From Minisyncoccota bacterium (GTDB taxonomy: Bacteria > Patescibacteriota > Minisyncoccia > UBA6257 > JAGOQP01): a stretch of DNA of 64,000 nucleotides. The stretch is from positions 36,263 through 100,262 of the forward strand of contig JBAZTS010000002.1 in assembly GCA_041661795.1 (NCBI GenBank), in the 5' to 3' direction. Below the pieces are notes generated by a model. It saw only the letters and a list, made by a program, of their open reading frames with translations. It had not been told where the DNA came from and searched no databases. Positions 13,351-57,417 of this stretch are shown one piece after another. The translations under genes and the position numbers were made by a program. Each line of letters starts with the position of its first letter. The stretch's first letter is position 1.

Positions 13351-13387
13351 AAACCCCGACACTGTCGGGATTTTTATTGATAGAATA

Positions 13388-15280
13388 TTATTGTTCTATA
13401 CAGTAAAGTCTATTAGTCAAGTTGCATGCCTCAATACCAGTGTAAGCCCAGCCACCGATAGCAGTGTTGGTGTATCCATAAGCTCCGTATCCACCCGCAG
13501 AGTTAGTTGTCCAGTTTGAACAGTCACTTGCCCCCTTGTAAAGTCCGGTAAAATCAAAATCTGTCCATACATAATCATTAACAAGAGTTCCATTTTCATC
13601 ATACTCTACTTTATTCATTAGATAATTTGTGCCATCAAATCTTACCCACGGCATTACGTATGGAGAAGTTGTTGTTGCCAAGCTAGAATCGGCGACAACA
13701 TAACCACCCATATTAATTAAACGTATCCAGTTATATCCTATTGTTGTTATTGGTTCTACGGTTGTACTGTATTGTCCAATAATTGCCTCCCACGTTCCGC
13801 CTAAGCTAGCAGCGTTTGCTCGTGCCTGACACTTAGCATGAGCTCCAGAAACTCCACCAAGATTTCCGTCATATAGAGCGGATGTTACAAATACTCTTTT
13901 TGTGAGAGTTGTTGTTGCCGATCCAGAAGCAACAGCCGCGTCAACATAGGCCTTTGTAGTGGCATCGGAATCAGCTGTGGGAGCAGCTAAGTTGGTTAGT
14001 TTGTATGTCGGCGTTGCACCAGTAAGTTTTATATTACCTTTAACTTCAAGCGCTTCTGTTGGAAGAGTTGAAGAAGATAATCCTATCCCAACTTTTGAAT
14101 TAGTTAAGTCCAAAGTCAGTGTTGATGTATCGGATAAAACTTGATAACCGGCAATACAAGGATTTCCAAGACAGATGTCATCTGTAAGAAGAAATTGAAC
14201 ATTTTTTCTACCATAAAATATCATATCATTAAGGGAACTTACTGCCGAAGATGCTCTGCCAAACCACCCTACCGCATAACCTTCATCATCTTCATTGCCA
14301 AAAGAACTTTTTGCTCTACTGGATGAGAATCCATATTGTGGTTCCGATGATACTCCTTCTGCCCACCAATATCCAAAATTATAAGGAGCTCTTGCAGACA
14401 AAACTGATCCGGCCACATCCAGTTTCGCTTTATATGCTGCTGACGTTGATGTTCCTATAACAACTTTATCTCCACTATTACCAACGGTAAAAACAGAAGT
14501 GCTTGAAGCTTTTATTCCCCCTGCGGTTTCTAAACTATAAGACGGAGCTGTTGTGCCTATTCCCACATTTCCTTGCACAATAAGTCCGTTTGAAGGAGCT
14601 GTGCTAGCTCCGGCATATGAAGACCCGATAGCCGCGCCTCCTGCTACGTCCAATTTATTTATTAAAGTTGAAACCCCTATCCCAACGTTTCCGGAAAATG
14701 CAGCGTTCTTCCATCTGGTTGGATTTATTCCAACAGAATATGAGTTGTCCGTTCCGGGAAGCAAATCGGAATCAAATGTCGCTGCCGAAGCTCTGGAAAC
14801 AGCTGATCTCAAACTTCTTGTTACGTTATTTCCTCCAACGTCTTGAGCAGATGATAAAGCCAAATCAATTTGAACCACGTCTTTTCCGGGATATTGAGTT
14901 AACTTCTTAAATTCTAAAGAATCAACCACCACTTTTTCATTAGTAAGCGCTTGAGCTGAATTATTTCCTTCTCTTATGTAAATTTGTCCTCCAGAAAGAT
15001 AAATTGTGGATGTGGTCGTATCTTTCATTCTTAGAACTAAGGAATCAGTGCTGGCTCCCGCTCCTATTTCTATTACGCTGGACTCTTTAACTAATCTTTG
15101 AATGGTATTCATCACAAAATTCAATTGACCCGATAACTCATTTTCAGCAGATTGCTCGACTTGGGTTTTTGTTACCGTTGTCATTATGCCAGTAATAATT
15201 CCTGTAGATATTGCCAAAATACCCACATAAATAAGCACCTCGGTTAAAGTAAAACCTTTGTTTTGTTTGTAGATTCTCAT
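13388..15280 (-). CDS. type IV pilin-like protein (prepilin N-terminal methylation motif) with a large lectin-like C-terminal domain
   Basis: N-terminus MRIYKQNKG|FTLTEVLIYVGILAIS (class III signal: G-FTLxE plus hydrophobic helix); 630 aa; C-terminal Cys-containing region with a WIxL motif; the gene is GC-richer than its flanks. Confidence 0.65.
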   Translation of the reverse strand: MRIYKQNKGFTLTEVLIYVGILAISTGIITGIMTTVTKTQVEQSAENELSGQLNFVMNTIQRLVKESSVIEIGAGASTDSLVLRMKDTTTSTIYLSGGQIYIREGNNSAQALTNEKVVVDSLEFKKLTQYPGKDVVQIDLALSSAQDVGGNNVTRSLRSAVSRASAATFDSDLLPGTDNSYSVGINPTRWKNAAFSGNVGIGVSTLINKLDVAGGAAIGSSYAGASTAPSNGLIVQGNVGIGTTAPSYSLETAGGIKASSTSVFTVGNSGDKVVIGTSTSAAYKAKLDVAGSVLSARAPYNFGYWWAEGVSSEPQYGFSSSRAKSSFGNEDDEGYAVGWFGRASSAVSSLNDMIFYGRKNVQFLLTDDICLGNPCIAGYQVLSDTSTLTLDLTNSKVGIGLSSSTLPTEALEVKGNIKLTGATPTYKLTNLAAPTADSDATTKAYVDAAVASGSATTTLTKRVFVTSALYDGNLGGVSGAHAKCQARANAASLGGTWEAIIGQYSTTVEPITTIGYNWIRLINMGGYVVADSSLATTTSPYVMPWVRFDGTNYLMNKVEYDENGTLVNDYVWTDFDFTGLYKGASDCSNWTTNSAGGYGAYGYTNTAIGGWAYTGIEACNLTNRLYCIEQ

Positions 15281-15334
15281 ATGAGATTATTATATCACAA
15301 TGGTGATTTTTATTCACTAAGATTGTGGATAAAT

Positions 15335-15361
15335 CCCCACACTAATTCTATTAGTGTGGGG
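15335..15361. repeat. hairpin repeat CCCCACACTAAT-tct-ATTAGTGTGGGG (family copy b)
   Basis: Same stem sequence as copy a; between the lepB-like gene and the pilin-like gene. Confidence 0.8.
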
Positions 15362-15367
15362 ATAAAC

Positions 15368-15973
15368 TTACCAGACAACCTTGCCTATGATGTTTTCTTT
15401 GGGTATTAAACCAAATCTGGTGCTATCCAAACTTCCTTCCGGAATGTTTCCTAAAATCAAAAAAGTGTCTTTTGGAATAATGGGATAATCTTTGGTATAC
15501 AACTTGAGCATGGCAGATTTTTGAGTAGATAAAACATAAGGAATAGATTGCTGGTTTCTCAATACTTTTTCGTTAACTATTATTTGATATCCGCTGTTTA
15601 TTTTTTTTAAGTTCCAAGAATCTCCATCTATGGCTTTTACTGTTTTTATGAGCGGTTCAGGATTGCCTGCATATTTGTATATGACAATATCATCTCTTTT
15701 GACTGGATTACACTTATAATATCCTTCCAAAACTTTTATTTTAGTTCCCGACTCTATTAATCCGCTCATGGAAGAACCAACTACGATGTCTTCTTTTTCG
15801 TCGTACGCGCAAGAAGAATTATTGGCAGAAACTATTTGTTTATCAGGGTGTTGGTTAATCTGAATCAGCTGGTCCGTGTTGCTTGATATGTTGAAAATAA
15901 TAATCAACAAAAAAATAACCGAGACGAGAACAAATATTTTGAATGTTTTTTTAAAAATCTTTGAATTTATCAT
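15368..15973 (-). CDS. lepB: signal peptidase I (S26 family)
   Basis: VVGSSMSGLIESGTKI (SM box), RDDIVIYKY, …LGNIPEGSLDSTRFGLIPKENIIGKV (GDN…S.DSR.FG box E). Confidence 0.6.
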   Translation of the reverse strand: MINSKIFKKTFKIFVLVSVIFLLIIIFNISSNTDQLIQINQHPDKQIVSANNSSCAYDEKEDIVVGSSMSGLIESGTKIKVLEGYYKCNPVKRDDIVIYKYAGNPEPLIKTVKAIDGDSWNLKKINSGYQIIVNEKVLRNQQSIPYVLSTQKSAMLKLYTKDYPIIPKDTFLILGNIPEGSLDSTRFGLIPKENIIGKVVW

Positions 15974-16012: not shown

Positions 16013-18334
16013 ATGTTAAGCGACAATATACGCAATTTTTGTATTATAGCCCACATAGATCACGGCAAATCTACATTGGCTGATAGGTTGCTTGAAATTA
16101 CAGGAACTATAGATAAGAGGAAGATGAAGAACCAATATCTTGATCAATTGGAATTGGAAAGAGAAAGAGGGATAACTATCAAAATGGCTCCTGTCCGCAT
16201 GCTCTATGCGCTGACTAACGCCGACTCTACGCCGACTGACGCAGACAATAAGAAATTAGATAATGCGAGTAGTCAATTATTGTATGAAGATTTAACCTAT
16301 AAAATAAGAGGAGTGTTGTTTGGCGTAAAGAAAAAAATAGGACTTGGTCATAAAGAAGTTATTTACCAAAAGGCCATAGAAGAAGAATTGACAAAAGAGA
16401 ACATACCTTTTGAAAAAGAAAAAATAATTAATATAGAACTTGATAATAAAAGTCTTGGCGTATACAGACCAGATTTTGTTATTGATAATAAAATTATATT
16501 AGAGATAAAATCTTTGCCTTTTATTGGAGATGTTGAGAAAAGGCAAGTTTGGACATATCTTAAGGGATCAGAATATAAATTGGCTTTATTAGTCAATTTC
16601 AATTCTAGAGATATTGATATTAAAAGAGTTGTGTATGATACAGCCAGAGAAATTCAGCGTGAGTCAGCGTTTAGTCAGCGTAAGTCGGCGCAGGTTGAGC
16701 AGTATGTGCTCAACCTGATAGACACTCCCGGGCATCCGGATTTTGGTTATGAAGTTTCCAGAGCTTTGGAAGCGGTTGAGGGGGCAATTTTGTTGGTTGA
16801 TGGAATGCAAGGAATACAAGCACAAACGTTATCTAATTTTTATGCTGCCAAAAAAGCCGGACTTACAATTATTGGCGCGGTTAACAAAGTGGATTTAAAT
16901 ATTCCTGACATAGATAAAGTTGTAATGGAAACAGCGGAGCTAATTGGTTGTGGGCCAGAACAAATTCATAAAATATCAGGAAGAACAGGAGAGGGAGTTC
17001 AACAGCTTTTGGGAGCAGTTATTCTTAGAATCCTACCTCCAAAAGCTGTAATTCCCAATTTCCAATTCCCAATTTCCAATTTTGGAAGGGCATTAATATT
17101 TGATTCTTTTTATGACGACCACAAAGGAATTATAGCCAGTGTCAGGGTATTTAATGGAGAATTTAATCAGTTTGATGATGTGGTTTTGGTGGCTGCTAAA
17201 GAAAAATTTAAAACAAAAGAAGTCGGATATTTTTCTCCGACCCTAAATCCTTCAAAAAGAATTTTAGAGGGAGAGATAGGTTATTTGGTTACCGGGATAA
17301 GAGACCCGTATAAAATAAAAATCGGTGACACGGTAATAGGTCACAAATCACAAGTCGCGCATCACGAATCGTATGCTTTGCCCGGATACAAAGAACCAAA
17401 GCCGGTGGTGTTTGTTTCTTTCTATCCAGACAATCCGGATGAATATGATGATTTAAAAAAATCTTTGGAAAGATTAAAGCTTAACGACTCTTCTTTTGCT
17501 TTTGAGCCGGATTTAAATGAAGTGTTGGGCAGGGGATTTAAAGGAGGATTTTTGGGAAAGCTTCATTTTGAAATAATTTCTCAGCGTCTTGAAAGAGAGT
17601 TTGGAATAAAAACAATCACATCTTTTCCTTCGGTCAGTTATAAAATAAAAACTTCTTCCAAACACTTAGCTCATCTAAAATTGGACGAAGATGGATTTTT
17701 CATAGCGTATAATCCCAAAGATATTCCTGAAGAATTTGAAAAGATATTAGAACCGATGATAAAAGTTGAAATTGTTTCATCACAAAAAATATTGGGAACA
17801 GTTTTGGGACTTAAAGATGCTTTTCGTTGGGAATACATAGAGACCCAACAATTGGGAGAAAAAGTTATTATTAAAACCAGAATGCCCTTGGCTGAGCTTA
17901 TCTCGGATTTTGACGACCAGTTAAAATCGGTTTCAGGTGGATTTGCTTCTTTTAGTTATGAAGAAGACGGCTATCAACAGGGCGATTTAATTAGGATGGA
18001 TATTTTAGTGGCAGACGAAATAGTTCCTGGGCTTTCTAGAATTCTTCCCAAAAAAGACATAGAATATCCGGCCAGGAAAATGGTTGTTCGCTTAAAGGAA
18101 GTATTGCCTCATCAGCAATTTACCCAAGCTATTCAAGCCAAAGTCGGAGGGAGAATTATAGCCAGAGAAACTATTGCGGCTTTAAGAAAAGATGTGACCG
18201 GATATCTTTATGGAGGAGACAGAACAAGAAAAATGAAACTTTGGAAAAAACAGCAAAGAGGCAAAAAGAAACTTCTTTCTATGGCCAAAGTGACCATATC
18301 TCCAGAAAACTTCAAGAAACTTCTTTCAAAATAA
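16013..18334 (+). CDS. lepA: elongation factor 4 (LepA) carrying a ~165-aa in-frame insertion (GxxExxY/PDDEXK_3 domain) in the G domain
   Basis: N-terminal NFCIIAHIDHGKSTLADRLL, …LIDTPGHPDFGYEVSRAL…, NKVDL, and the LepA C-terminal domain; the insertion lies between the ITIK (G2) and DTPGH (G3) motifs. Confidence 0.9.
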   Translation: MLSDNIRNFCIIAHIDHGKSTLADRLLEITGTIDKRKMKNQYLDQLELERERGITIKMAPVRMLYALTNADSTPTDADNKKLDNASSQLLYEDLTYKIRGVLFGVKKKIGLGHKEVIYQKAIEEELTKENIPFEKEKIINIELDNKSLGVYRPDFVIDNKIILEIKSLPFIGDVEKRQVWTYLKGSEYKLALLVNFNSRDIDIKRVVYDTAREIQRESAFSQRKSAQVEQYVLNLIDTPGHPDFGYEVSRALEAVEGAILLVDGMQGIQAQTLSNFYAAKKAGLTIIGAVNKVDLNIPDIDKVVMETAELIGCGPEQIHKISGRTGEGVQQLLGAVILRILPPKAVIPNFQFPISNFGRALIFDSFYDDHKGIIASVRVFNGEFNQFDDVVLVAAKEKFKTKEVGYFSPTLNPSKRILEGEIGYLVTGIRDPYKIKIGDTVIGHKSQVAHHESYALPGYKEPKPVVFVSFYPDNPDEYDDLKKSLERLKLNDSSFAFEPDLNEVLGRGFKGGFLGKLHFEIISQRLEREFGIKTITSFPSVSYKIKTSSKHLAHLKLDEDGFFIAYNPKDIPEEFEKILEPMIKVEIVSSQKILGTVLGLKDAFRWEYIETQQLGEKVIIKTRMPLAELISDFDDQLKSVSGGFASFSYEEDGYQQGDLIRMDILVADEIVPGLSRILPKKDIEYPARKMVVRLKEVLPHQQFTQAIQAKVGGRIIARETIAALRKDVTGYLYGGDRTRKMKLWKKQQRGKKKLLSMAKVTISPENFKKLLSK
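16209..16693 (+). mobile_element. in-frame inserted element: GC-rich terminal inverted repeats (tandem decamers CGCYGACTNA / inverted AGTCRGCG) flanking an AT-rich GxxExxY (PDDEXK_3) nuclease-domain cargo
   Basis: Left TIR 16209-16244 (cgctgactaa cgccgactcta cgccgactgac); right TIR 16661-16693 (gagtcagcgt ttagtcagcgt aagtcggcg); cargo YKIRGVLFGV…GLGHKEVIYQKAIEEEL…YRPDFVIDNKIILEIKS…LALLVNFNS…IKRVV matches the GxxExxY family. Confidence 0.7.
17050..17084 (+). repeat. heptamer array AATTCCC-AATTTCC-AATTCCC-AATTTCC-AATTTTG in-frame within lepA
   Basis: Direct reading; encodes IPNFQFPISNF. Confidence 0.85.
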
Positions 18335-18365
18335 TTTTTATTTGTGTCTTTTTTTAAATAAGCTT

Positions 18366-18462
18366 TAGGAAAGATTTTGAGGCCATGCGGAAGACGGCGG
18401 TCTGAGCTAGAGGGATTTTTCAGCAGAAAAATACCCGTGCCTAAAAATTTTTTCTAAAGCGG
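18366..18462 (+). repeat. ~100-nt MITE-like element, copy 1 (imperfect TIRs GAAAGATTTTGAGG / CCTAAAAATTTTTTC flanking a conserved 60-nt core)
   Basis: Core GGCCATGCGGAAGACGGCGGTCTGAGCTAGAGGGATTTTTCAGCAGAAAAATACCCGTGCC; its reverse complement recurs at 46836-46932. Confidence 0.7.
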
Positions 18463-18472
18463 ATTAGTATTA

Positions 18473-38168: not shown

Positions 38169-39272
38169 CTATTTTAGATTCTCTATTATAGCTATCTCAA
38201 AGGGCACCAAGGGGAAAGGATTGTATTTCATTTGGGAGTAGGCGGTGATGAGCGCTTTTATAAGTTTTATCTGCTCGTCCGTATCTATTTTAGCCGAATG
38301 TTTTTTTATTTCTTTTATTTGGCTTTCGGCCAATTCCTTTTCAAATATCTTTTCCAGTTCCGGATTAAGATGTAAAGAAAGAACCCTTCTTAAATATTCT
38401 GTCAGATCTTTGTTAAATTGAAAAAGATTGTATCCCTGACTGTTTATTTCGTATAAAAATTCCAGCGACTTTTGTAAGTCCTTTTTTATGACCAAATCGG
38501 CCATTTTTATTGTTTTTAGAAAATCAACTTTTCCCAAGATGCTTTCCACGTATTCAACGGTAATATTCTTGCCCTTCATGGAAACAATCTGGTCAAAAAG
38601 AGATTCGGCATCTCTTAAACTTCCTTCAGCTAAAAAGGCAATCATTTCCAAAGCTTCTTTTTCGTATTCTACTTTTTCTTCTTTGGCGATAAATGAAAGT
38701 TTTTTTATAATCTCCTGTAGTGTCAGCTTTCTAAAATGAAATCTCTGGGTTCGGGAAACAATAGTGGGAGGGAGCTTGTCGTATTCGGTGGTGGCTAATA
38801 TAAAAACGGCATGGGCTGGCGGTTCTTCTAAAGTTTTTAAAAGAGCGTTAAATGCCTGTGGAGTGAGCATGTGAACTTCATCTATGATAAAGATTTTGTA
38901 TTTAAGATAAGAGGGGAGTGTTTTTATGTTTTCTTTGAGATTTCTTATTTCATCTATTCCTCGGTTGGAAGCGGCGTCAATTTCAACGACATCCAAAGCT
39001 CTGCCTTCTTCAACTTGTAAACAGGCGTGACATTCTCCACAGGGCTCTCCTTGCTTGGCAAAGTTTTCGTCCTCTTGTCTTTTCTGGCAGTTAATTATTT
39101 TGGAAAAGATTCTGGCGATAGTTGTTTTGCCGGTTCCTCTTGAACCGTAGAAAAGATAGGCATGAGAAATTTTACCTTCCTTAACTGAATTTTGAAGTAT
39201 GGTAACCGTATTTTCCTGACCGTAAATATCAGCAAGTTTTTTTGGTCGGTATTTTCTATAAATAGCTAACAT
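38169..39272 (-). CDS. dnaX: DNA polymerase III subunit gamma/tau (short form, 367 aa)
   Basis: KYRPKKLADIYGQENTVTIL…GSRGTGKTT (Walker A), Zn module CGECHAC, DEVHML, SRTQRF sensor. Confidence 0.85.
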   Translation of the reverse strand: MLAIYRKYRPKKLADIYGQENTVTILQNSVKEGKISHAYLFYGSRGTGKTTIARIFSKIINCQKRQEDENFAKQGEPCGECHACLQVEEGRALDVVEIDAASNRGIDEIRNLKENIKTLPSYLKYKIFIIDEVHMLTPQAFNALLKTLEEPPAHAVFILATTEYDKLPPTIVSRTQRFHFRKLTLQEIIKKLSFIAKEEKVEYEKEALEMIAFLAEGSLRDAESLFDQIVSMKGKNITVEYVESILGKVDFLKTIKMADLVIKKDLQKSLEFLYEINSQGYNLFQFNKDLTEYLRRVLSLHLNPELEKIFEKELAESQIKEIKKHSAKIDTDEQIKLIKALITAYSQMKYNPFPLVPFEIAIIENLK

Positions 39273-39278
39273 ATCAAT

Positions 39279-39315
<37 letters not shown>

Positions 39316-39324
39316 GCTATGAAA

Positions 39325-39366
39325 TAAAAAAAGCCCGCCGGTGTCTTCCGAGGAAGTCCTGGCGGG
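39325..39366 (-). terminator. intrinsic terminator of the minus-strand GC-rich transcript
   Basis: Minus-strand RNA …CCCGCCAGGACUUCC-UCGG-GGAAGACACCGGCGGG followed by UUUUUUU. Confidence 0.65.
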
Positions 39367-39922
39367 GTGGAACAGGTGGTGCGACCTTAGCTCACTCGGT
39401 GCTGTCGAGTTCGCTCGCCCGATATACTCTCCGGGTGATACGAGAGCTCGAATCTGCCGAGACGTGACGCGTGGTCACTTTTTGCTAAGGTTTTTTGGGG
39501 TGCTGCTCCTCTTCCTGTTCGGTACTTTCTAAGAACGGTTCCCACACCGTTCTCGCCGGCGAGCTTAGCTCGCGCAGGGTAGAGGCGCCTCCTAAAGGAG
39601 GCAAAACATGAGTACAAATTCGGAATTGGATTTTTGTGAGTTTCCGGACTCACTATCTCGTTTGGTGCACCTCCCGAGAAGTCCTTTTCCTTCCACTTAT
39701 TATTGGGCCAGTTTGAGATCAGCGGTGGACACTCAAACTGTTTGCGTGCTTTCACCGAGCTTGCCGGATTTACTCGGATCTTTGGTGAGATGGCGCAACC
39801 CCACAGTTTTGACCTCCCTCAGCTGCGCGCGCAACTGAGTTGTCAGCTCACCTAGTGACAGAGGCCCCCTTTTTGACCGTTTTTTCTTCTTGGTCCGGAA
39901 GGGTTTCCGTGCTACATTTTTA
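39335..39922 (-). ncRNA. unclassified GC-rich structured transcript (~590 nt) upstream of and co-directional with dnaX; candidate SRP RNA, tmRNA or other ncRNA
   Basis: Consensus promoter (TTGACA-N16-TATAAT at 39930-39957, minus strand) and intrinsic terminator; 55-60% GC; many hairpins (CCUCCuuuaGGAGG, GCGAGCuaaGCUCGC, GAGAACGGUgugggaACCGUUCUU); no convincing long ORF. Confidence 0.4.
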
Positions 39923-39929
39923 TGCCTGT

Positions 39930-39957
39930 ATTATACTCCTTTTGTTTTATTTGTCAA
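39930..39957 (-). promoter_or_regulatory. consensus sigma70 promoter (TTGACA-N16-TATAAT) on the minus strand
   Basis: Reverse complement of 39930-39957 reads TTGACAaataaaacaaaaggagTATAAT. Confidence 0.6.
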
Positions 39958-40020
39958 GTACCCATAATAAAGTTCTAAAAACCTTGGAATTTAGTGTTTT
40001 TGGCTATATAATTAATTAGT

Positions 40021-46817: not shown

Positions 46818-46835
46818 GGGTTTTATTATTTCGTT

Positions 46836-46932
46836 TCAGAAAAGGTTTTGGGGCACGGGTATTTTTCTGCTGAAAAATCCCTCAAGCTCAGCCCGTCGGC
46901 TTCCGCACGGTCCCAAAACCTTTTCTAAAACT
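46836..46932 (-). repeat. ~100-nt MITE-like element, copy 2 (TIRs AGAAAAGGTTTTGGG / CCCAAAACCTTTTCT)
   Basis: Core is about 90% identical to the reverse complement of 18381-18441; 15-bp perfect flanking inverted repeats. Confidence 0.7.
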
Positions 46933-51178: not shown

Positions 51179-52666
51179 ATGACTAAGTATATTAAATCTA
51201 AATTAAATAGTTGCTTTTCTTATCCCGATATACGGTCTACGGTTTACAGTTCCCGTTCCTTCACCCTTGTAGAACTCCTCGTCGTCATAGGTATCCTAGC
51301 AGTCCTTACTACAGCAGTCGTTATCATCCTCAATCCTGCTGATTATCTTGCTCAATCTCGTGACTCTAGAAGAATGAATGACCTCTCTCTCCTCAATAAC
51401 TCTCTCCAGAACTTAGAAGCCATAGACCCTACCATATCTTTTGGAACATCTCTTACCGTCTATATCTCCATCCCAGACGATGCTTCTTCTACCTGTGGAA
51501 CCTTAGGATTACCCAATCTTTCTTCAGGATATACATATAACTGTGTCTCTACAGCTAATCTCACCAAAACAGATGGTACAGGTTGGGTTCCTGTCAACTT
51601 TACTACTCAATCTATTGTTCAATTATCTGCTCTTCCTATAGATCCTACTAATACCCCTACAGATGGACTTTATTATACATATACTCCTGGAGGGAGTTGG
51701 CATCTAAGATCTATTCTTGAATCATCTAAATATCAATCCAAAGCTCTAAACGATGGAGGCACATCAGACAACGCCTTTGAAACAGGAACGAACATGGCTC
51801 TTGCTCCAGCAGTATTCCCCAACAACTGGATAAAGGTTCCCGGAAGCTCCACATACAATACCTCTGATTTTTGGGTTATGAAGTATGAGGCCAAGTATGA
51901 CAAGGATAATGATGGAAAAGGAGATGCAACATCATATTGTAGATACGGTGGTTATAATTCAATTTCTATTGGTTGTGTTACTGGTGGCAGTTTTATATCC
52001 TCAGCTTATGGTTTTCCTGTTGCTACCGCTTATTCTGCTTCTGACGCTAACAATGCCTGTTCTTCTACCGGTGCTCATCTTGTTACAAATAACGAATGGA
52101 TGACGATCGCCAGAAATGTAGAACAAGTTGATTCCAACTGGACAGGCGGTTCTGTTGGTTCCGGAAAATTATTTATTGGCAACTATGGTTATTGTTATGG
52201 AGTTAGTAATTGCTATACCTTTAGTGGCACGTTTCAAGATTATGGAACTAATAGAAACTCAAGAGCAAAGTTGACTCTTTCCAATAAGGAAGAAATATAT
52301 GACTTTTCTGGTAATATGGCCGAAAATGTAAAACTCGGATCTTCTTTTGCTATTACCGAAGCAAATCATCCGGATGCGATCAGTATAGGAGATTGGGCCA
52401 ATAATGATTTTTTATCTCTTACTAGTTATGGAGATTTTTCTTCTTATGATAATCTAGGACCATCTGATGACTCATGGACTAATGCCAGTCAAGGAGTTGG
52501 ATATATGTATCATTGCGATGGATGTTCTTCTGGTGGCGCCTCAACAATAATTAGAGGAGGATCAGTTGATTCTCAAGCCGCTGGAGCTCCTGGAATATAT
52601 ACGATTCGTCTGCGTTATATAGGTGGCGATTATAATGCTTATAGTGGTTTTCGCTGCGCTAAATAA
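51179..52666 (+). CDS. type IV pilin-like protein with a C-terminal FGE-sulfatase/C-type-lectin-like domain
   Basis: …RS|FTLVELLVVIGILAVLTTAVVII (prepilin-type N-terminal helix); C-terminal …NNEWMTIARN…DFSGNMAENV… resembles FGE-sulfatase-domain motifs; C-ending codon bias unlike its neighbours. Confidence 0.55.
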   Translation: MTKYIKSKLNSCFSYPDIRSTVYSSRSFTLVELLVVIGILAVLTTAVVIILNPADYLAQSRDSRRMNDLSLLNNSLQNLEAIDPTISFGTSLTVYISIPDDASSTCGTLGLPNLSSGYTYNCVSTANLTKTDGTGWVPVNFTTQSIVQLSALPIDPTNTPTDGLYYTYTPGGSWHLRSILESSKYQSKALNDGGTSDNAFETGTNMALAPAVFPNNWIKVPGSSTYNTSDFWVMKYEAKYDKDNDGKGDATSYCRYGGYNSISIGCVTGGSFISSAYGFPVATAYSASDANNACSSTGAHLVTNNEWMTIARNVEQVDSNWTGGSVGSGKLFIGNYGYCYGVSNCYTFSGTFQDYGTNRNSRAKLTLSNKEEIYDFSGNMAENVKLGSSFAITEANHPDAISIGDWANNDFLSLTSYGDFSSYDNLGPSDDSWTNASQGVGYMYHCDGCSSGGASTIIRGGSVDSQAAGAPGIYTIRLRYIGGDYNAYSGFRCAK

Positions 52667-54871: not shown

Positions 54872-54962
54872 CAAAACAAGTTTCGAAACCGCTTCACTGC
54901 CGTGAACAACACTACAGAAAGAGCGGTCGGAGCACTGCTCTTTCACAGAAAGGGGAACTTCG

Positions 54963-55361
54963 ATGAGTGGGATCGCTTGGTTTTTCGAGGTGTTCGCTCT
55001 GCTGTTTTTCGTGGGGACTCTGGGCGTTGCTTTCATCGGACGCCGCATCCTCAAGGCGGAGCAGGAGTCGTCGGTTCTGATGTCTTTCCTCCAGATCTGC
55101 AGTGGAGCGCTCTTCATCTTCTACGTTTTCGGACTGGGTCAACTCATGGCTCTGTCTGGACTGGAAGGTGCAAGGGCGCCCCGGTGGCTGATTCCGGGCA
55201 CCTACATCACTCTCACCATCTTCAGCGCGTTGACTCGGCTGGCTCTTCCAAGGTGGGGCAGTGACAACAAAGCGATGCAACTCTGGAGTGTCGTCAGCGT
55301 CCTGACGTTCCTACTCGGCACGTTCTGCCTCGGGGCGTACTCGTCCAACTACTTCGAGTAG
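54963..55361 (+). CDS. GC-rich (~58% GC) 4-TM membrane protein of unknown function
   Basis: AAAGGGGAAC RBS before the ATG at 54963; four hydrophobic helices; terminator hairpin at 55386-55420; overlapping alternative-frame ORFs were rejected. Confidence 0.4.
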   Translation: MSGIAWFFEVFALLFFVGTLGVAFIGRRILKAEQESSVLMSFLQICSGALFIFYVFGLGQLMALSGLEGARAPRWLIPGTYITLTIFSALTRLALPRWGSDNKAMQLWSVVSVLTFLLGTFCLGAYSSNYFE

Positions 55362-55385
55362 GTCTCCTTCTTCAGCTCTTCAACT

Positions 55386-55420
55386 GGCGGCGTCTCTCAC
55401 GAGGCGCCGCACTGCTTTTT
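55386..55420 (+). terminator. intrinsic terminator (GGCGGCGucucucacgagGCGCCGC followed by a T-run)
   Basis: GC stem followed by ACTGCTTTTT. Confidence 0.55.
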
Positions 55421-55467: not shown

Positions 55468-56607
55468 TTAATCGGTATATGTCCGTGACCGACGTAGTCG
55501 GTGGTATCGTATAGCAAATCTGTGGGCTTCGTTTCTTAACGAAAGTAATGTATTTTTAACATCTTCGGGGATTTGGCTCAAGCTGATAGGGGATTTTGAA
55601 TAGGGACTGTAAATCAATCCTTTTGTTTGTGATCTTTTATATTTCTTGCCAACATCGTTAATTAACTTACCATTACAATTAGAACGATCGTTGTAATTGT
55701 AATGGTGTGGATTATTACCCACAGATTGCAATTTGCCCACGTTTAGTTTTGCTAGAGCTATCATCGGAATCTTAATTGTTTTGAGTTGTGAGATTTGTGA
55801 TTTTCCTCCGTCAATGATAATTAAATCCGGATATTTCCATTCTTTGTGGTTAAGGCGTCTTTCTATAATTTCTTTTATTGAAGCCGGGTCATTGGCTCCT
55901 TTTATCGTTTTTATTTTAAATTTTCTGTAAAGATTTTTATTAGGTTTATTTCCGATAAACGTTACCATTGAGCCAACTGACAAACTACCTTGGGTATTGG
56001 AAATGTCGTAGCACTCAATATGTGTTTTTTCTCCATTATATAAACGAAGAAAAGTTTTTAATCCATTAACCACCTGGATGTATTTTTTTACTTCGATATT
56101 ATGAGCGGAACATAACCCTAAGTGATAATACAAGCACGGCTTTTCCGGTTTATTTTTACATGTGCGATAGGGGAATATTCTTCTGATTATCAATAAGAGA
56201 TGCTTAATCTCTTTTGCGTCTACAAACGGGCCAACAAAATCGGCTTTAAATTTTTTTGTTTGGTGTGTTAAAAGCACTCTGGGGTACTTTTCGTCGGTAA
56301 AAGCTATATACAAAAAATCCTTGTCATCTTTAAGTTCAATGTTATATTTTGGCTGATACTGTCTAACTAATTTTCTTTCTAAAATCAAGGCGTCTTTTTC
56401 AGATGGGGTTTCTATAAAATCTAAGTCAGCTACTTGTTTGTAAAAATTAATAGAAGCATTCTCTTGTCTAGAAAAATGCGATTCTATTCTCTTTTTTATA
56501 TTAATAGCTTTTCCGATATACAAAATCTTCTCATTCTTATCTTTGAAAATATATACTCCCGGTTTCTTAGGAAGTGCTTTTATCTTATTCTTCAGGATTG
56601 TTTTCAC
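55468..56607 (-). CDS. uvrC: minimal UvrC-like endonuclease (GIY-YIG, Cys motif and C-terminal endonuclease domain; no UvrB-binding or HhH domains), with a 36-bp palindrome in-frame
   Basis: GVYIFKDKNEKILYIGKAINIKKRIESHF (GIY-YIG); YRTCKNKPEKPCLYYHLGLC; IECYDISNTQG…DLIIIDGGKSQ…NEAHRFAIRYHR matches the UvrC catalytic D/D/H triad region; 379 aa. Confidence 0.7.
   Translation of the reverse strand: MKTILKNKIKALPKKPGVYIFKDKNEKILYIGKAINIKKRIESHFSRQENASINFYKQVADLDFIETPSEKDALILERKLVRQYQPKYNIELKDDKDFLYIAFTDEKYPRVLLTHQTKKFKADFVGPFVDAKEIKHLLLIIRRIFPYRTCKNKPEKPCLYYHLGLCSAHNIEVKKYIQVVNGLKTFLRLYNGEKTHIECYDISNTQGSLSVGSMVTFIGNKPNKNLYRKFKIKTIKGANDPASIKEIIERRLNHKEWKYPDLIIIDGGKSQISQLKTIKIPMIALAKLNVGKLQSVGNNPHHYNYNDRSNCNGKLINDVGKKYKRSQTKGLIYSPYSKSPISLSQIPEDVKNTLLSLRNEAHRFAIRYHRLRRSRTYTD
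55670..55705. repeat. 36-bp palindrome CCATTACAATTAGAACGATCGTTgTAATTGTAATGG (copy 1, in-frame inside the uvrC-like CDS)
   Basis: Near-perfect palindrome; translated as …HHYNYNDRSNCN… within the 379-aa ORF. Confidence 0.85.
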
Positions 56608-56645
56608 TGTTTTTTTATTTTTATCCTTATCTTAATCTTAATCTA

Positions 56646-56681
56646 CCATTACATTTAGAACGATCGTTCTAAATGTAATGG
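56646..56681. repeat. 36-bp perfect palindrome CCATTACATTTAGAACGATCGTTCTAAATGTAATGG (copy 2, intergenic)
   Basis: Between the uvrC-like start and the PaaX-like stop. Confidence 0.85.
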
Positions 56682-56684
56682 TGG

Positions 56685-57245: not shown

Positions 57246-57270
57246 AACAATATTATATCATCATTTATTA

Positions 57271-57306
57271 CCATTACAATTAGAACGATCGTTCTAATTG
57301 TAATGG
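57271..57306. repeat. 36-bp perfect palindrome CCATTACAATTAGAACGATCGTTCTAATTGTAATGG (copy 3, upstream of the PaaX-like gene)
   Basis: Lies 26 nt upstream of the PaaX-like start codon. Confidence 0.85.
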
Positions 57307-57417
57307 AGGGAGTATATATGATTAAGAATATTAAATAATTATCATAGAGTTATTATGATTATAGATTGATTTTATCGTTTTAATTAAAGAGTGCCTTATA
57401 AATTAGCACGGACCGCT

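What the first reader, a model, noticed from the sequence alone, without database searches (positions are those of the whole stretch)
13388..15280. Giant pilin-like adhesin (630 aa) with a lectin-like C-terminus, flanked by a signal peptidase I gene
It has the classic prepilin N-terminus (…NKG|FTLTEVLIYVGILAIS) but is about four times the length of a major pilin. The C-terminal region carries Cys pairs and WIxL and Gly/Tyr-rich motifs reminiscent of C-type-lectin-like folds. The gene is noticeably GC-richer than its neighbours. Together with the second pilin-like gene at 51179, this points to acquired or fast-evolving surface adhesins, which is relevant to host attachment in CPR-like organisms.
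Basis: partly seen in the sequence, partly recalled or inferred. Interest (0 to 1): 0.5.

Follow-up and report, generated by a model that had tools for sequence, protein, structure and literature searches.

The report
Pilin carrying a tail-fibre-like adhesin
This gene from an ultrasmall Patescibacteria (CPR) bacterium encodes a type IV pilin fused to a phage-tail-fibre-like stalk and an endostatin-like binding tip, probably a pilus-borne attachment fibre; it is a clear example of the already described "modular pilins", not a new kind of system.

Summary
The ORF is real: 13388-15280, minus strand, 630 aa. It has four parts.

1. A canonical prepilin signal, MRIYKQNKG|FTLTE.
3. A Gly/Ser/Ala-rich stalk of "GNVGIGTxxPxxKLxV" repeats. 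The family profile matches Bdellovibrio trimeric "MAT" fibre proteins (E 7e-18).
4. A C-terminal DUF1554 domain (aa 460-630, four conserved Cys) that folds like collagen XVIII endostatin (Foldseek E 2e-8; profile E 6e-10).

So "pilin-like adhesin with a lectin-like tip" is broadly right: the tip's best matches are all endostatin, with only weak C-type-lectin hits. "Acquired" is not supported. The extra GC sits at codon position 2 (amino-acid composition), GC3 is ordinary, and the lepB-pilin-secA arrangement recurs in many Paceibacteria genomes.

What does vary is the tip. Genes at the same locus carry DUF1554, S74, LamG, an unannotated Cys-rich tip, or no fibre at all.

No pilus machinery lies in the 84 kb examined. 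In six related genomes, family members sit next to pilM/N/O/B/T or pilB/C.

Verdict: a new member of a known kind (modular pilins), of moderate interest.

The parts
13388..15280 (-). Complete CDS (630 aa plus stop) of the modular pilin. Identical to NCBI MFA6136034.1 / MFA6353044.1.
15254..15280 (-). Class III (prepilin) leader peptide, aa 1-9, MRIYKQNKG. Predicted cleavage after G9.
   Evidence: F10 and E14 are at least 90% conserved in 58 homologs. Among 120 homologs the cleavage site reads G|F in 81 and A|F in 17.
15083..15253 (-). Alpha1 helix of the mature pilin (aa 10-66), including the hydrophobic alpha1N segment and Glu at +5.
   Evidence: AF2 helix 12-66, pLDDT about 90 or more. The family profile hits Geopilin and PilA N-termini.
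14771..15082 (-). Beta-sheet head of the pilin module (aa 67-170), GspJ/XcpW/TTHA1219-like.
14696..14770 (-). Linker segment (aa 171-195), the C-terminal part of the family's most conserved stretch (aa 163-190, ..RSAVSRASAATFDSDLLPGxDNxYxVG....RW..), joining the pilin module to the stalk.
   Evidence: Invariant P175, G184 and W190 lie in this span; invariant R163, A166, A167, F169 and D170 lie just upstream in the pilin head. The pattern [IV][AS]R[VA]SAATFD retrieved 104 relatives.
14411..14695 (-). Stalk, first part (aa 196-290): three GNVGIG-type repeats at aa 197, 237 and 271.
   Evidence: The family profile matches Bdellovibrio MAT fibre proteins 8ond, 8oml, 8ojn, 8ol4 and 8on4.
14105..14410 (-). 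Insert within the stalk (aa 291-392), containing C370 and C375. Found only in close homologs. Structure not predicted (pLDDT below 50).
13904..14104 (-). Last stalk repeat (aa 395) and the conserved junction ..LTNLAAPTADSDATTKAYVDAAVASG (aa 393-459), which precedes the tip.
   Evidence: The same junction precedes different tips in homologs.
13391..13903 (-). Tip: DUF1554 / endostatin-like domain (aa 460-630) with conserved Cys 484, 587, 619 and 627.
   Evidence: Pfam PF07588 36 bits against 27.5. Alignment A1. AF2 pLDDT 77.5, pTM 0.79. Foldseek endostatin E 2e-8, TM 0.62-0.70. A1 profile against PDB endostatin E 6e-10.
15289..15297 (-). Possible extended -10 promoter element (TGATATAAT), 8 nt before the ATG with no Shine-Dalgarno. 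My reading only, low weight.
   Evidence: Sequence. Not reported by the consensus scan, which requires a -35 element.
13355..13369 (.). GC-rich hairpin between the convergent secA and pilin genes, with T-rich tails on both strands (terminator-like).
15368..15973 (-). Signal peptidase I (lepB), the conserved upstream neighbour. Listed as context only; no functional link shown.

Best explanation
The gene encodes a modular type IV minor pilin.

Shown by sequence and modelling:
- a class III signal peptide;
- a GspJ-like pilin module;
- a stalk of tail-fibre/MAT-type repeats;
- an endostatin-like DUF1554 tip.

Inferred mechanism:
1. A prepilin peptidase cleaves after Gly9.
2. The hydrophobic alpha1 helix lets the type IV pilus machinery incorporate the protein into a pilus. 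It most likely enters at the tip and in low copy, as GspJ-class and other bulky modular pilins are thought to do.
3. The stalk holds the tip domain away from the filament.
4. The tip binds a surface molecule on the host or partner cell that these episymbiotic bacteria attach to.
5. Specificity is changed over evolutionary time by exchanging the tip module behind a conserved ATKxYVDAA junction.

The stalk may form a trimer, as the homologous fibres do. In that case three copies would cap the pilus, as reported for CofB.
For: Prepilin motif:
- It passes the Pfam cutoff.
- F+1 and E+5 are conserved in at least 90% of 58 homologs.

Pilin fold:
- AF2 models a 55-residue alpha1 helix plus beta-sheet with block-mean pLDDT 84-97 over most of aa 11-160.

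Stalk:
- The family profile hits Bdellovibrio MAT fibres (8ond, E 6.9e-18). These are trimeric, surface-displayed and carry swappable adhesive tips (PMC10769870).
- About 20 pilin-bearing homologs end in the S74 tail-fibre chaperone domain.

Tip:
- DUF1554, endostatin fold and endostatin profile match.
- Leptospira DUF1554 proteins are adhesins (PMC2063517).

Tip exchange: different tips follow the same junction, including at the same lepB/secA locus.

Link to pilus machinery: family members lie directly beside pilM-N-O-pilB-pilT (L048, L054, L059) or pilB-pilC plus other modular pilins (L027).

Concept: modular pilins are an established class that includes CPR examples (PMC8179133).
Against: - No pilB/C/M/N/O/T homolog occurs in the window plus 10 kb on each side (84 kb).
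- The gene is solitary, not in a minor-pilin operon.
- Tip location, trimerisation and the ligand are all inferred.
- The monomer model of the stalk is poor (pLDDT below 50 for aa 283-382).
- Foldseek on the same N-terminal model gave nothing significant.
- The query alone, unlike the family profile, does not hit MAT proteins in PDB.
Confidence: 0.65

Rival explanations
1. It is a membrane-anchored surface fibre, not a pilus subunit. The class III signal peptide serves only for export and anchoring. The alpha1 helix stays in the cytoplasmic membrane and the fibre projects through the wall. The closest analogy is Bdellovibrio MAT fibres held by their own N-terminal anchor.
For: - The gene is solitary and lies among secA, lepB and lepA, not among pilus genes.
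- No pilus machinery occurs in 84 kb.
- The same stalk and DUF1554 cassette occurs behind an ordinary Sec signal or anchor in P0111.
- The DUF1554 domain alone follows an N-terminal hydrophobic, probably membrane-anchoring segment in P0121.
- So the fibre does not need a pilin.
Against: - The N-terminal 170 aa is a complete, well-conserved pilin head of the GspJ class, not just a hydrophobic anchor.
- Glu+5, typical of assembling pilins, is conserved.
- Relatives are encoded immediately beside pilMNO-pilB-pilT or pilB-pilC.
Confidence: 0.2
2. It is a minor pilin of a competence (Com-type) pilus, whose main job is DNA uptake rather than attachment to cells.
For: - Weak NCBIfam similarity to ComGE and ComGF (E 8e-4 and 1e-3).
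- A comEC gene lies about 9 kb beyond the left end of the window.
Against: - The ComG scores (about 19 bits) are far below the cutoffs (49 and 80) and cover only the generic N-terminal helix.
- None of the DUF1554, endostatin or MAT/tail-fibre matches found here involves a DNA-binding protein.
- The described relatives are adhesins (PMC2063517, PMC10769870).
Confidence: 0.08
3. It is a recently acquired foreign or phage-derived gene, as the first reader suggested from the GC content.
For: - It has the highest overall GC of 63 ORFs.
- The stalk repeats resemble phage tail fibres, and many homologs carry S74.
Against: - GC3 is 0.269 against a window mean of 0.303. The excess is at codon position 2 only.
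- The lepA/lepB-pilin-secA arrangement is kept in at least 17 genomes, with orthologs only 45-65% identical.
- There are no mobile-element genes or flanking repeats.
Confidence: 0.04

Closest known systems
Modular type IV pilins (S. sanguinis PilB with a vWA module, PilC with a lectin module; Raynaud et al. 2021, PMC8179133)
   Same: [quoted passage not shown]
- That paper's survey already lists CPR proteins and the architectures IPR012902-S74 (29 proteins) and IPR012902-PF13385 (229 proteins).
- It also lists IPR012902-IPR011448 (2 proteins). I believe from memory, unverified, that IPR011448 is DUF1554.
   Different: Here a long tail-fibre/MAT-type repeat stalk separates the pilin from the tip. 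The tip is endostatin-like. The organism is a Paceibacteria MAG. Nothing has been tested experimentally.
GspJ / XcpW / EpsJ minor pseudopilins and Thermus TTHA1219
   Different: Sequence identity is only 6-13%. Those proteins have no C-terminal extension. No GspI- or GspK-like partners were seen next to this gene.
Bdellovibrio bacteriovorus MAT (mosaic adhesive trimeric) fibres, e.g. Bd2133 (8ond); Caulton et al. 2024, PMC10769870
   Same: - Shared SGNVGIGTxxPxxKLxV repeat (family profile E 6.9e-18).
- The same anchor-stalk-variable tip logic.
- The same split into S74 and non-S74 members.
- Tips that include a C-type-lectin fold and TNF/C1q-like domains.
- Both organisms live by attaching to other bacteria.
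   Different: The invariant MAT N-terminal anchor is replaced by a type IV pilin module. This protein is much shorter (630 aa against about 1,000 aa). Trimerisation is not shown here.
Endostatin domain of collagens XVIII/XV and Leptospira Len proteins (DUF1554)
   Same: - Fold match TM 0.62-0.70.
- Profile match E 6e-10 across the whole domain.
- Four Cys at positions similar to endostatin's two disulfides. The endostatin disulfide positions are from memory.
- Len proteins are surface adhesins (PMC2063517).
   Different: Identity to endostatin is 17-18%. It is not a LenA/LenB equivalog (30 bits against a cutoff of 300). It is presented on a pilin rather than on a collagen or an outer-membrane protein. 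The ligand is unknown.
CofB / TcpB minor pilins of type IVb pili
   Same: A pilin module, a beta-repeat region and a C-terminal binding domain. CofB is reported to form a trimer predicted to sit at the pilus tip (as summarised in PMC8179133; PMC6048534).
   Different: No sequence or fold match to CofB or TcpB appeared in the searches. This is an analogy of architecture only.

Membership tests
Type IV pilin / type 4 filament subunit | Class III signal peptide: short basic leader ending in Gly, hydrophobic residue at +1, Glu at +5 | tested here: met
   MRIYKQNKG|FTLTE. Pfam N_methyl 23.2 bits against 21.2. F10 and E14 are at least 90% conserved in the family.
Type IV pilin / type 4 filament subunit | Extended alpha1 helix of about 50 residues packed against an antiparallel beta-sheet head | tested here: met
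Type IV pilin / type 4 filament subunit | Processed by a prepilin peptidase and polymerised by a PilB/PilC machinery encoded in the same genome | not testable with these tools
   No homolog in the 84 kb seen. The rest of the MAG is inaccessible. Family members in 6 of 80 related loci adjoin pilM/N/O/B/T or pilB/C.
Modular pilin (sensu Raynaud et al. 2021) | Pilin module followed by an additional domain not specific to pilus biology | tested here: met
   N_methyl plus DUF1554. Modules mapped.
DUF1554 (PF07588) / endostatin-like domain | Match to the Pfam model above its gathering score | tested here: met
   36 bits against 27.5, aa 469-606, model positions 3-135 of 136.
DUF1554 (PF07588) / endostatin-like domain | Endostatin fold with conserved Cys pairs | tested here: met
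   Foldseek 1koe, 1bnl, 1dy0 and 1dy2, E 2e-8 to 2e-6, TM 0.58-0.70. C484 (near-invariant) and C587, C619, C627 conserved in A1. Disulfide bonding itself was not checked.
LenA/LenB endostatin-like outer membrane proteins (NF047482) | Equivalog-level score | tested here: not met
   30.4 bits against a cutoff of 300. It shares the domain and is not an ortholog.
Canonical C-type lectin domain | Significant match to CTLD structures or models | tested here: not met
   Best CTLD hits (LOX-1, snake-venom C-type lectins) have E at least 0.06 and TM 0.2-0.3. No Lectin_C Pfam hit. Ca2+ and sugar-binding motifs were not examined.
FGE-sulfatase fold | Match to PF03781 or FGE structures | tested here: not met
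   No hit for this protein.
MAT / tail-fibre-like trimeric fibres | SGNVGIGTxxPxxKLxV-type repeats homologous to solved MAT fibres | tested here: met
   Family profile A4 against 8ond E 6.9e-18, and against 8oml, 8ojn, 8ol4 and 8on4 E 3e-10 to 2e-6. Four repeats in the query. The query alone gives no PDB hit.
MAT / tail-fibre-like trimeric fibres | Homotrimeric assembly | not testable with these tools
   Only monomer prediction was available. The stalk has low confidence.
MAT / tail-fibre-like trimeric fibres | Invariant MAT N-terminal anchor domain | tested here: not met
   Indirect. The N-terminus is a pilin module. The A4-profile hits on MAT chains cover only the stalk-repeat region (profile positions 218-389), and the solved MAT chains may not include the N-terminal anchor.

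The most novel reading that the evidence does not exclude
Paceibacteria carry a tail fibre on a pilus. Three copies of this GspJ-like pilin would be joined by a trimeric MAT/phage-type stalk to cap a type IV pilus. They would present exchangeable receptor-binding tips (DUF1554, S74-matured, LamG, Kelch, C1q and others). The tips would be swapped by recombination at the conserved ATKxYVDAA junction, at a fixed lepB-secA locus. This would be the host-range determinant of these episymbionts, built from the same parts as Bdellovibrio prey-recognition fibres and phage receptor-binding proteins.
Probability: 0.3. Interest if true: 0.65.

Novelty: new member of a known kind. Interest (0 to 1): 0.4.

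Why it matters
How Patescibacteria (CPR) recognise and hold on to their host cells is largely unknown outside a few cultivated Saccharibacteria. There, type IV pili are implicated in the association with the host (PMC9894109, PMC12206443; titles and abstracts only).

This family is restricted to Patescibacteria and has several hundred 50%-identity clusters. It has a constant pilin carrier, a tail-fibre-like stalk and interchangeable tips. That makes it a concrete candidate for the specificity-determining adhesin of Paceibacteria pili.

The tip domains are small, disulfide-bonded modules. They could be expressed and used as probes to find the unknown hosts of uncultivated lineages.

The sequence link to Bdellovibrio MAT fibres suggests that very different bacteria which attach to other bacteria share one toolkit.

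Tried and rejected
1. Horizontal transfer inferred from GC: rejected. The excess is at codon position 2 and GC3 is normal. Synteny is conserved.
2. A diversity-generating retroelement acting on the lectin-like tips: no template/variable repeat pair and no reverse transcriptase in the window.
3. LenA/LenB orthology: 30 bits against a cutoff of 300.
4. Weak Pfam hits (MVL mannan-binding E 0.12, PH_17 E 0.2, Pertactin E 0.49): treated as noise.
5. ComGE, ComGF and GspH NCBIfam hits: only the generic N-terminal helix, far below cutoffs.
7. A full-length alignment for structure prediction (A2, A3): non-homologous tips were forced onto the query's C-terminus. The protein was therefore modelled in two pieces (A1, A4).
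8. Looking for pilus machinery by extending the contig 10 kb each side: none found, only comEC.
9. FGE-like C-terminus of the second pilin gene: E 0.11, not significant.
10. Verifying that IPR011448 is DUF1554: no paper mentions the accession. It remains my recollection.
Full report
**1. The observation**

The window has an ATG-to-stop ORF of 630 aa at 13388..15280 on the minus strand. Its N-terminus is MRIYKQNKG|FTLTEVLIYVGILAIS. This is a textbook prepilin (class III) signal:
- a short basic leader ending in Gly;
- Phe at +1;
- Glu at +5;
- about 20 hydrophobic residues after the cleavage site.

Pfam N_methyl scores above its cutoff (23.2 against 21.2 bits). It is the only canonical G|F[ST]LxE site in a six-frame scan of the window.

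Cys lie at 484, 587, 619 and 627, WIRL is at 518, and there is a Gly/Tyr-rich stretch.

The co-oriented upstream neighbour, 15368..15973, is signal peptidase I (TIGR02227 67 bits against a cutoff of 47).

The identical protein is public as MFA6136034.1, annotated [quoted passage not shown]. JGI calls it "pseudopilin PulG". It lies on a 156-kb metagenomic contig.

**2. GC content**

The gene has the highest GC of 63 ORFs (0.405). The excess lies at codon position 2 (0.49, z = 3.8), which reflects a protein that is 42% Gly, Thr, Ser and Ala. GC3 is 0.269 against a window mean of 0.303.

The same pattern holds for the second pilin-like gene at 51179. So the raw observation is correct, but it carries no signal of foreign origin.

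**3. Anatomy**

BLAST of the query against its 120 best database relatives, two AlphaFold models and motif mapping give five segments.

*(a) Pilin module, aa 1-170.*
- AF2 models a helix at 12-66 and a beta-sheet at 80-164, with block-mean pLDDT 84-97.
- Foldseek on the same model was not significant.
- By fold, then, it is a GspJ-class minor pilin, not a major pilin.

*(b) Conserved stretch, aa 163-195.* This is the most conserved part of the family. R163, A166, A167, F169, D170, P175, G184 and W190 are invariant in 58 sequences.

*(c) Stalk, aa 196-459.*
- It has four copies of a GNVGIG(T)xxPxxxL(D/E)V motif, at aa 197, 237, 271 and 395.
- It is interrupted by an insert (aa 291-392) that is poorly predicted and found only in close homologs.
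- A profile of the family hits the solved Bdellovibrio "cell wall surface anchor family" proteins: 8ond (Bd2133) at E 6.9e-18, and 8oml, 8ojn, 8ol4 and 8on4.
- These are the "mosaic adhesive trimeric" (MAT) fibres of Caulton et al. 2024. They are phage-tail-fibre-like and surface-displayed. They come in S74 and non-S74 subfamilies and carry interchangeable adhesive tips (PMC10769870).

*(d) Junction.* The sequence ..APTADSDATTKAYVDAAVASG (aa 430s-450s) precedes the tip.

*(e) Tip, aa 460-630.*
- Pfam DUF1554 scores 36 bits against 27.5.
- With an alignment of 14 sequences, AF2 gives pLDDT 77.5 and pTM 0.79.
- The only significant Foldseek hits in PDB are endostatin domains of collagens XVIII and XV (E 2e-8 to 2e-6, TM 0.58-0.70). 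Canonical C-type lectins follow at E of at least 0.06.
- A sequence profile of the tip also finds endostatin (E 6e-10).
- Four Cys are conserved.

**4. The family**

The N-terminal 195 aa alone finds many relatives among 1.84 billion cluster representatives: 1,870 at E up to 1e-3, 573 at E up to 1e-10 and 196 at E up to 1e-30. In the 150 best hits listed, the match is always at the N-terminus of proteins of 184 to 1,930 aa.

In a scan of one genome per species, 104 relatives were found. Nearly all are in Patescibacteria MAGs: Paceibacterota, Wolfe-, Harrison-, Jorgensen-, Colwell-, Lipton- and Brennerbacteria, and many bins labelled Saccharibacteria. One 2.3-kb contig was binned as Caldithrix.

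Behind the constant pilin module, the listed relatives carry different domains:

| Domain | Number of listed relatives |
|---|---|
| Peptidase_S74 tail-fibre chaperone | about 20 |
| LamG-like | 4 |
| Kelch | 4 |
| Glycine-rich PF21722 | 5 |
| C1q | 2 |
| Dockerin, phage collar, YadA-head | 1 each |
| DUF1554 | query, P0002, P0014 |
| No Pfam domain | the remainder |

The same ATKxYVDAAxGG junction precedes several different tips:
- DUF1554;
- an unannotated Cys-rich tip ending ..CGTGECVIK;
- Kelch propellers;
- a small Cys-containing tip.

P0111 carries the same stalk, junction and DUF1554 behind an ordinary Sec-type signal instead of a pilin. So anchor, stalk and tip are separable modules.

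**5. Genomic context**

The window is housekeeping DNA. It includes EF-G, rplM and rpsI, murA, tpiA, murB, secA, lepB, lepA, pgk, RNase P RNA, dnaX, scpAB, mraY, tgt and uvrABC.

The order lepA <- | -> lepB -> pilin | <- secA is kept in several places:
- the genomes of P0002 and P0007 (45-47% identical proteins);
- at least 14 of the 80 related loci, which keep secA and/or lepA/lepB beside the gene.

At that locus the gene ranges from 239 aa (bare pilin module) to 780 aa. Its tips include DUF1554, the Cys-rich tip, S74 and LamG+S74.

The locus is therefore old and vertically inherited, and what turns over is the fibre and tip. I found no reason to link signal peptidase I functionally to the pilin. 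Prepilins are cut by a different enzyme (established knowledge). lepA, lepB and secA are simply neighbours.

**6. Pilus machinery**

None was found in the window or in 10 kb on either side. tblastn with PilB, PilC, PilM, PilN, PilO and PilT from related loci gave only a spurious P-loop match to uvrB. A comEC gene lies about 9 kb to the left of the window.

The remaining 72 kb of the contig and the rest of the genome could not be read.

In related genomes the link is direct:
- In L048, L054 and L059 the family member is immediately followed by pilM, pilN, pilO, a small gene, pilB and pilT.
- L080 has pilM/N/O nearby, and L057 has pilB.
- In L027 the family member sits in the cluster pilA-like, pilB, pilC and three modular pilins.
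- Pfam confirms PilM_2, PilO, T2SSE+MshEN, T2SSF and N_methyl.

**7. Most likely mechanism**

Shown: the sequence and the predicted folds of the four modules, the family's modular variation, and the genomic association of relatives with pilus genes.

Inferred:
1. A prepilin peptidase cleaves after G9.
2. The pilin module is incorporated into a type IV pilus. This is most likely at the tip and in low copy, because GspJ-class pilins belong to tip complexes and because a 460-residue appendage is hard to fit on every subunit. Raynaud et al. argue the same for modular pilins.
3. The stalk projects the endostatin-like tip.
4. The tip binds an envelope component of the partner cell.

More speculative: the stalk trimerises, as MAT fibres and S74-matured tail fibres do. 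Three pilin modules would then cap the filament, as reported for CofB (PMC6048534). The low monomer confidence for the stalk is compatible with an obligate oligomer but proves nothing.

**8. Comparison with known systems, and novelty**

The protein meets the definition of a modular pilin (PMC8179133). That paper's survey already counted more than 1,200 such proteins in 264 architectures, including CPR examples. It lists IPR012902-S74 (29 proteins) and IPR012902-IPR011448 (2 proteins). I believe from memory, unverified, that IPR011448 is DUF1554.

On membership of the narrower families:
- It is not a LenA/LenB ortholog.
- It is not a canonical C-type lectin.
- It is not FGE-like.
- It shares the stalk repeats and overall logic of Bdellovibrio MAT fibres, but not their N-terminal anchor.

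I did not find the explicit link between the CPR pilin family and MAT/tail-fibre stalks in the papers I searched. The same is true of the tip turnover at a fixed lepB/secA locus. This is an extension of a known kind, not a new kind.

**9. Verdict**

The most novel reading not excluded is a trimeric, tip-swappable "tail fibre on a pilus" that acts as host-range determinant. I give that about 0.3 probability.

Noticed in passing
window 16013-18334 (+); also L003 6746-8914 and L004 6786-9158: LepA (773 aa) carries an in-frame PDDEXK_3 (PF13366) nuclease-like domain. In the window gene and L004 the domain order is GTP_EFTU, PDDEXK_3, GTP_EFTU, i.e. inside the GTPase domain. In L003 PDDEXK_3 is listed before a single GTP_EFTU hit. 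The insertion is present in all three genomes.
   Followed up: partly
window 51179-52666 (+): A second modular pilin-like gene (495 aa). N_methyl scores 24.7 bits, but Ser rather than Gly precedes the FTLVE, and the leader is 27 aa long. Its first 190 aa are 38% identical to the pilin gene that heads the pilB-pilC cluster in locus L027, so it may be a major-pilin-type module with a 300-aa extension. The C-terminus ends ..YSGFRCAK. The FGE-sulfatase match is only E 0.11.
   Followed up: partly
window 55662-55707, 56638-56683, 57263-57308: Three copies (87-100% identical) of a 46-nt palindromic element, TACCATTACAATTAGAACGATCGTTCTAATTGTAATGG. The first lies inside the uvrC reading frame.
   Followed up: no
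window 18361-18469 and 46824-46932: A 109-nt sequence present twice in inverted orientation (83% complementary), 28 kb apart. Both copies are in intergenic DNA. It could be a small mobile element or an RNA gene.
   Followed up: no
window 15281-15367 (-): Between lepB and the pilin gene there is a hairpin (CCCCACAC...GTGTGGGG). There is also an extended -10-like TGATATAAT only 8 nt before the ATG, with no Shine-Dalgarno. The pilin gene may have its own promoter and a leaderless or near-leaderless mRNA.
   Followed up: no
L006 1-2192 (about 8-10 kb beyond the left end of the window): A comEC-type DNA-uptake channel gene pair (DUF4131 + Competence, then Lactamase_B) on the same contig.
   Followed up: no
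window 39001-40000 and 54900-55400: Locally GC-rich stretches (0.44-0.45 in a 0.35 genome). Only dubious ORFs lie at 39387-39755 and 54900-55400, and there is no Rfam match at gathering threshold. They may be unrecognised RNA genes.
   Followed up: no
L027 4450-5913 (+): In a related Paceibacterota genome, another modular pilin (N_methyl plus an NHL-repeat beta-propeller) sits next to the family member, inside a pilB-pilC cluster. Several differently tipped pilins can therefore be encoded side by side.
   Followed up: partly
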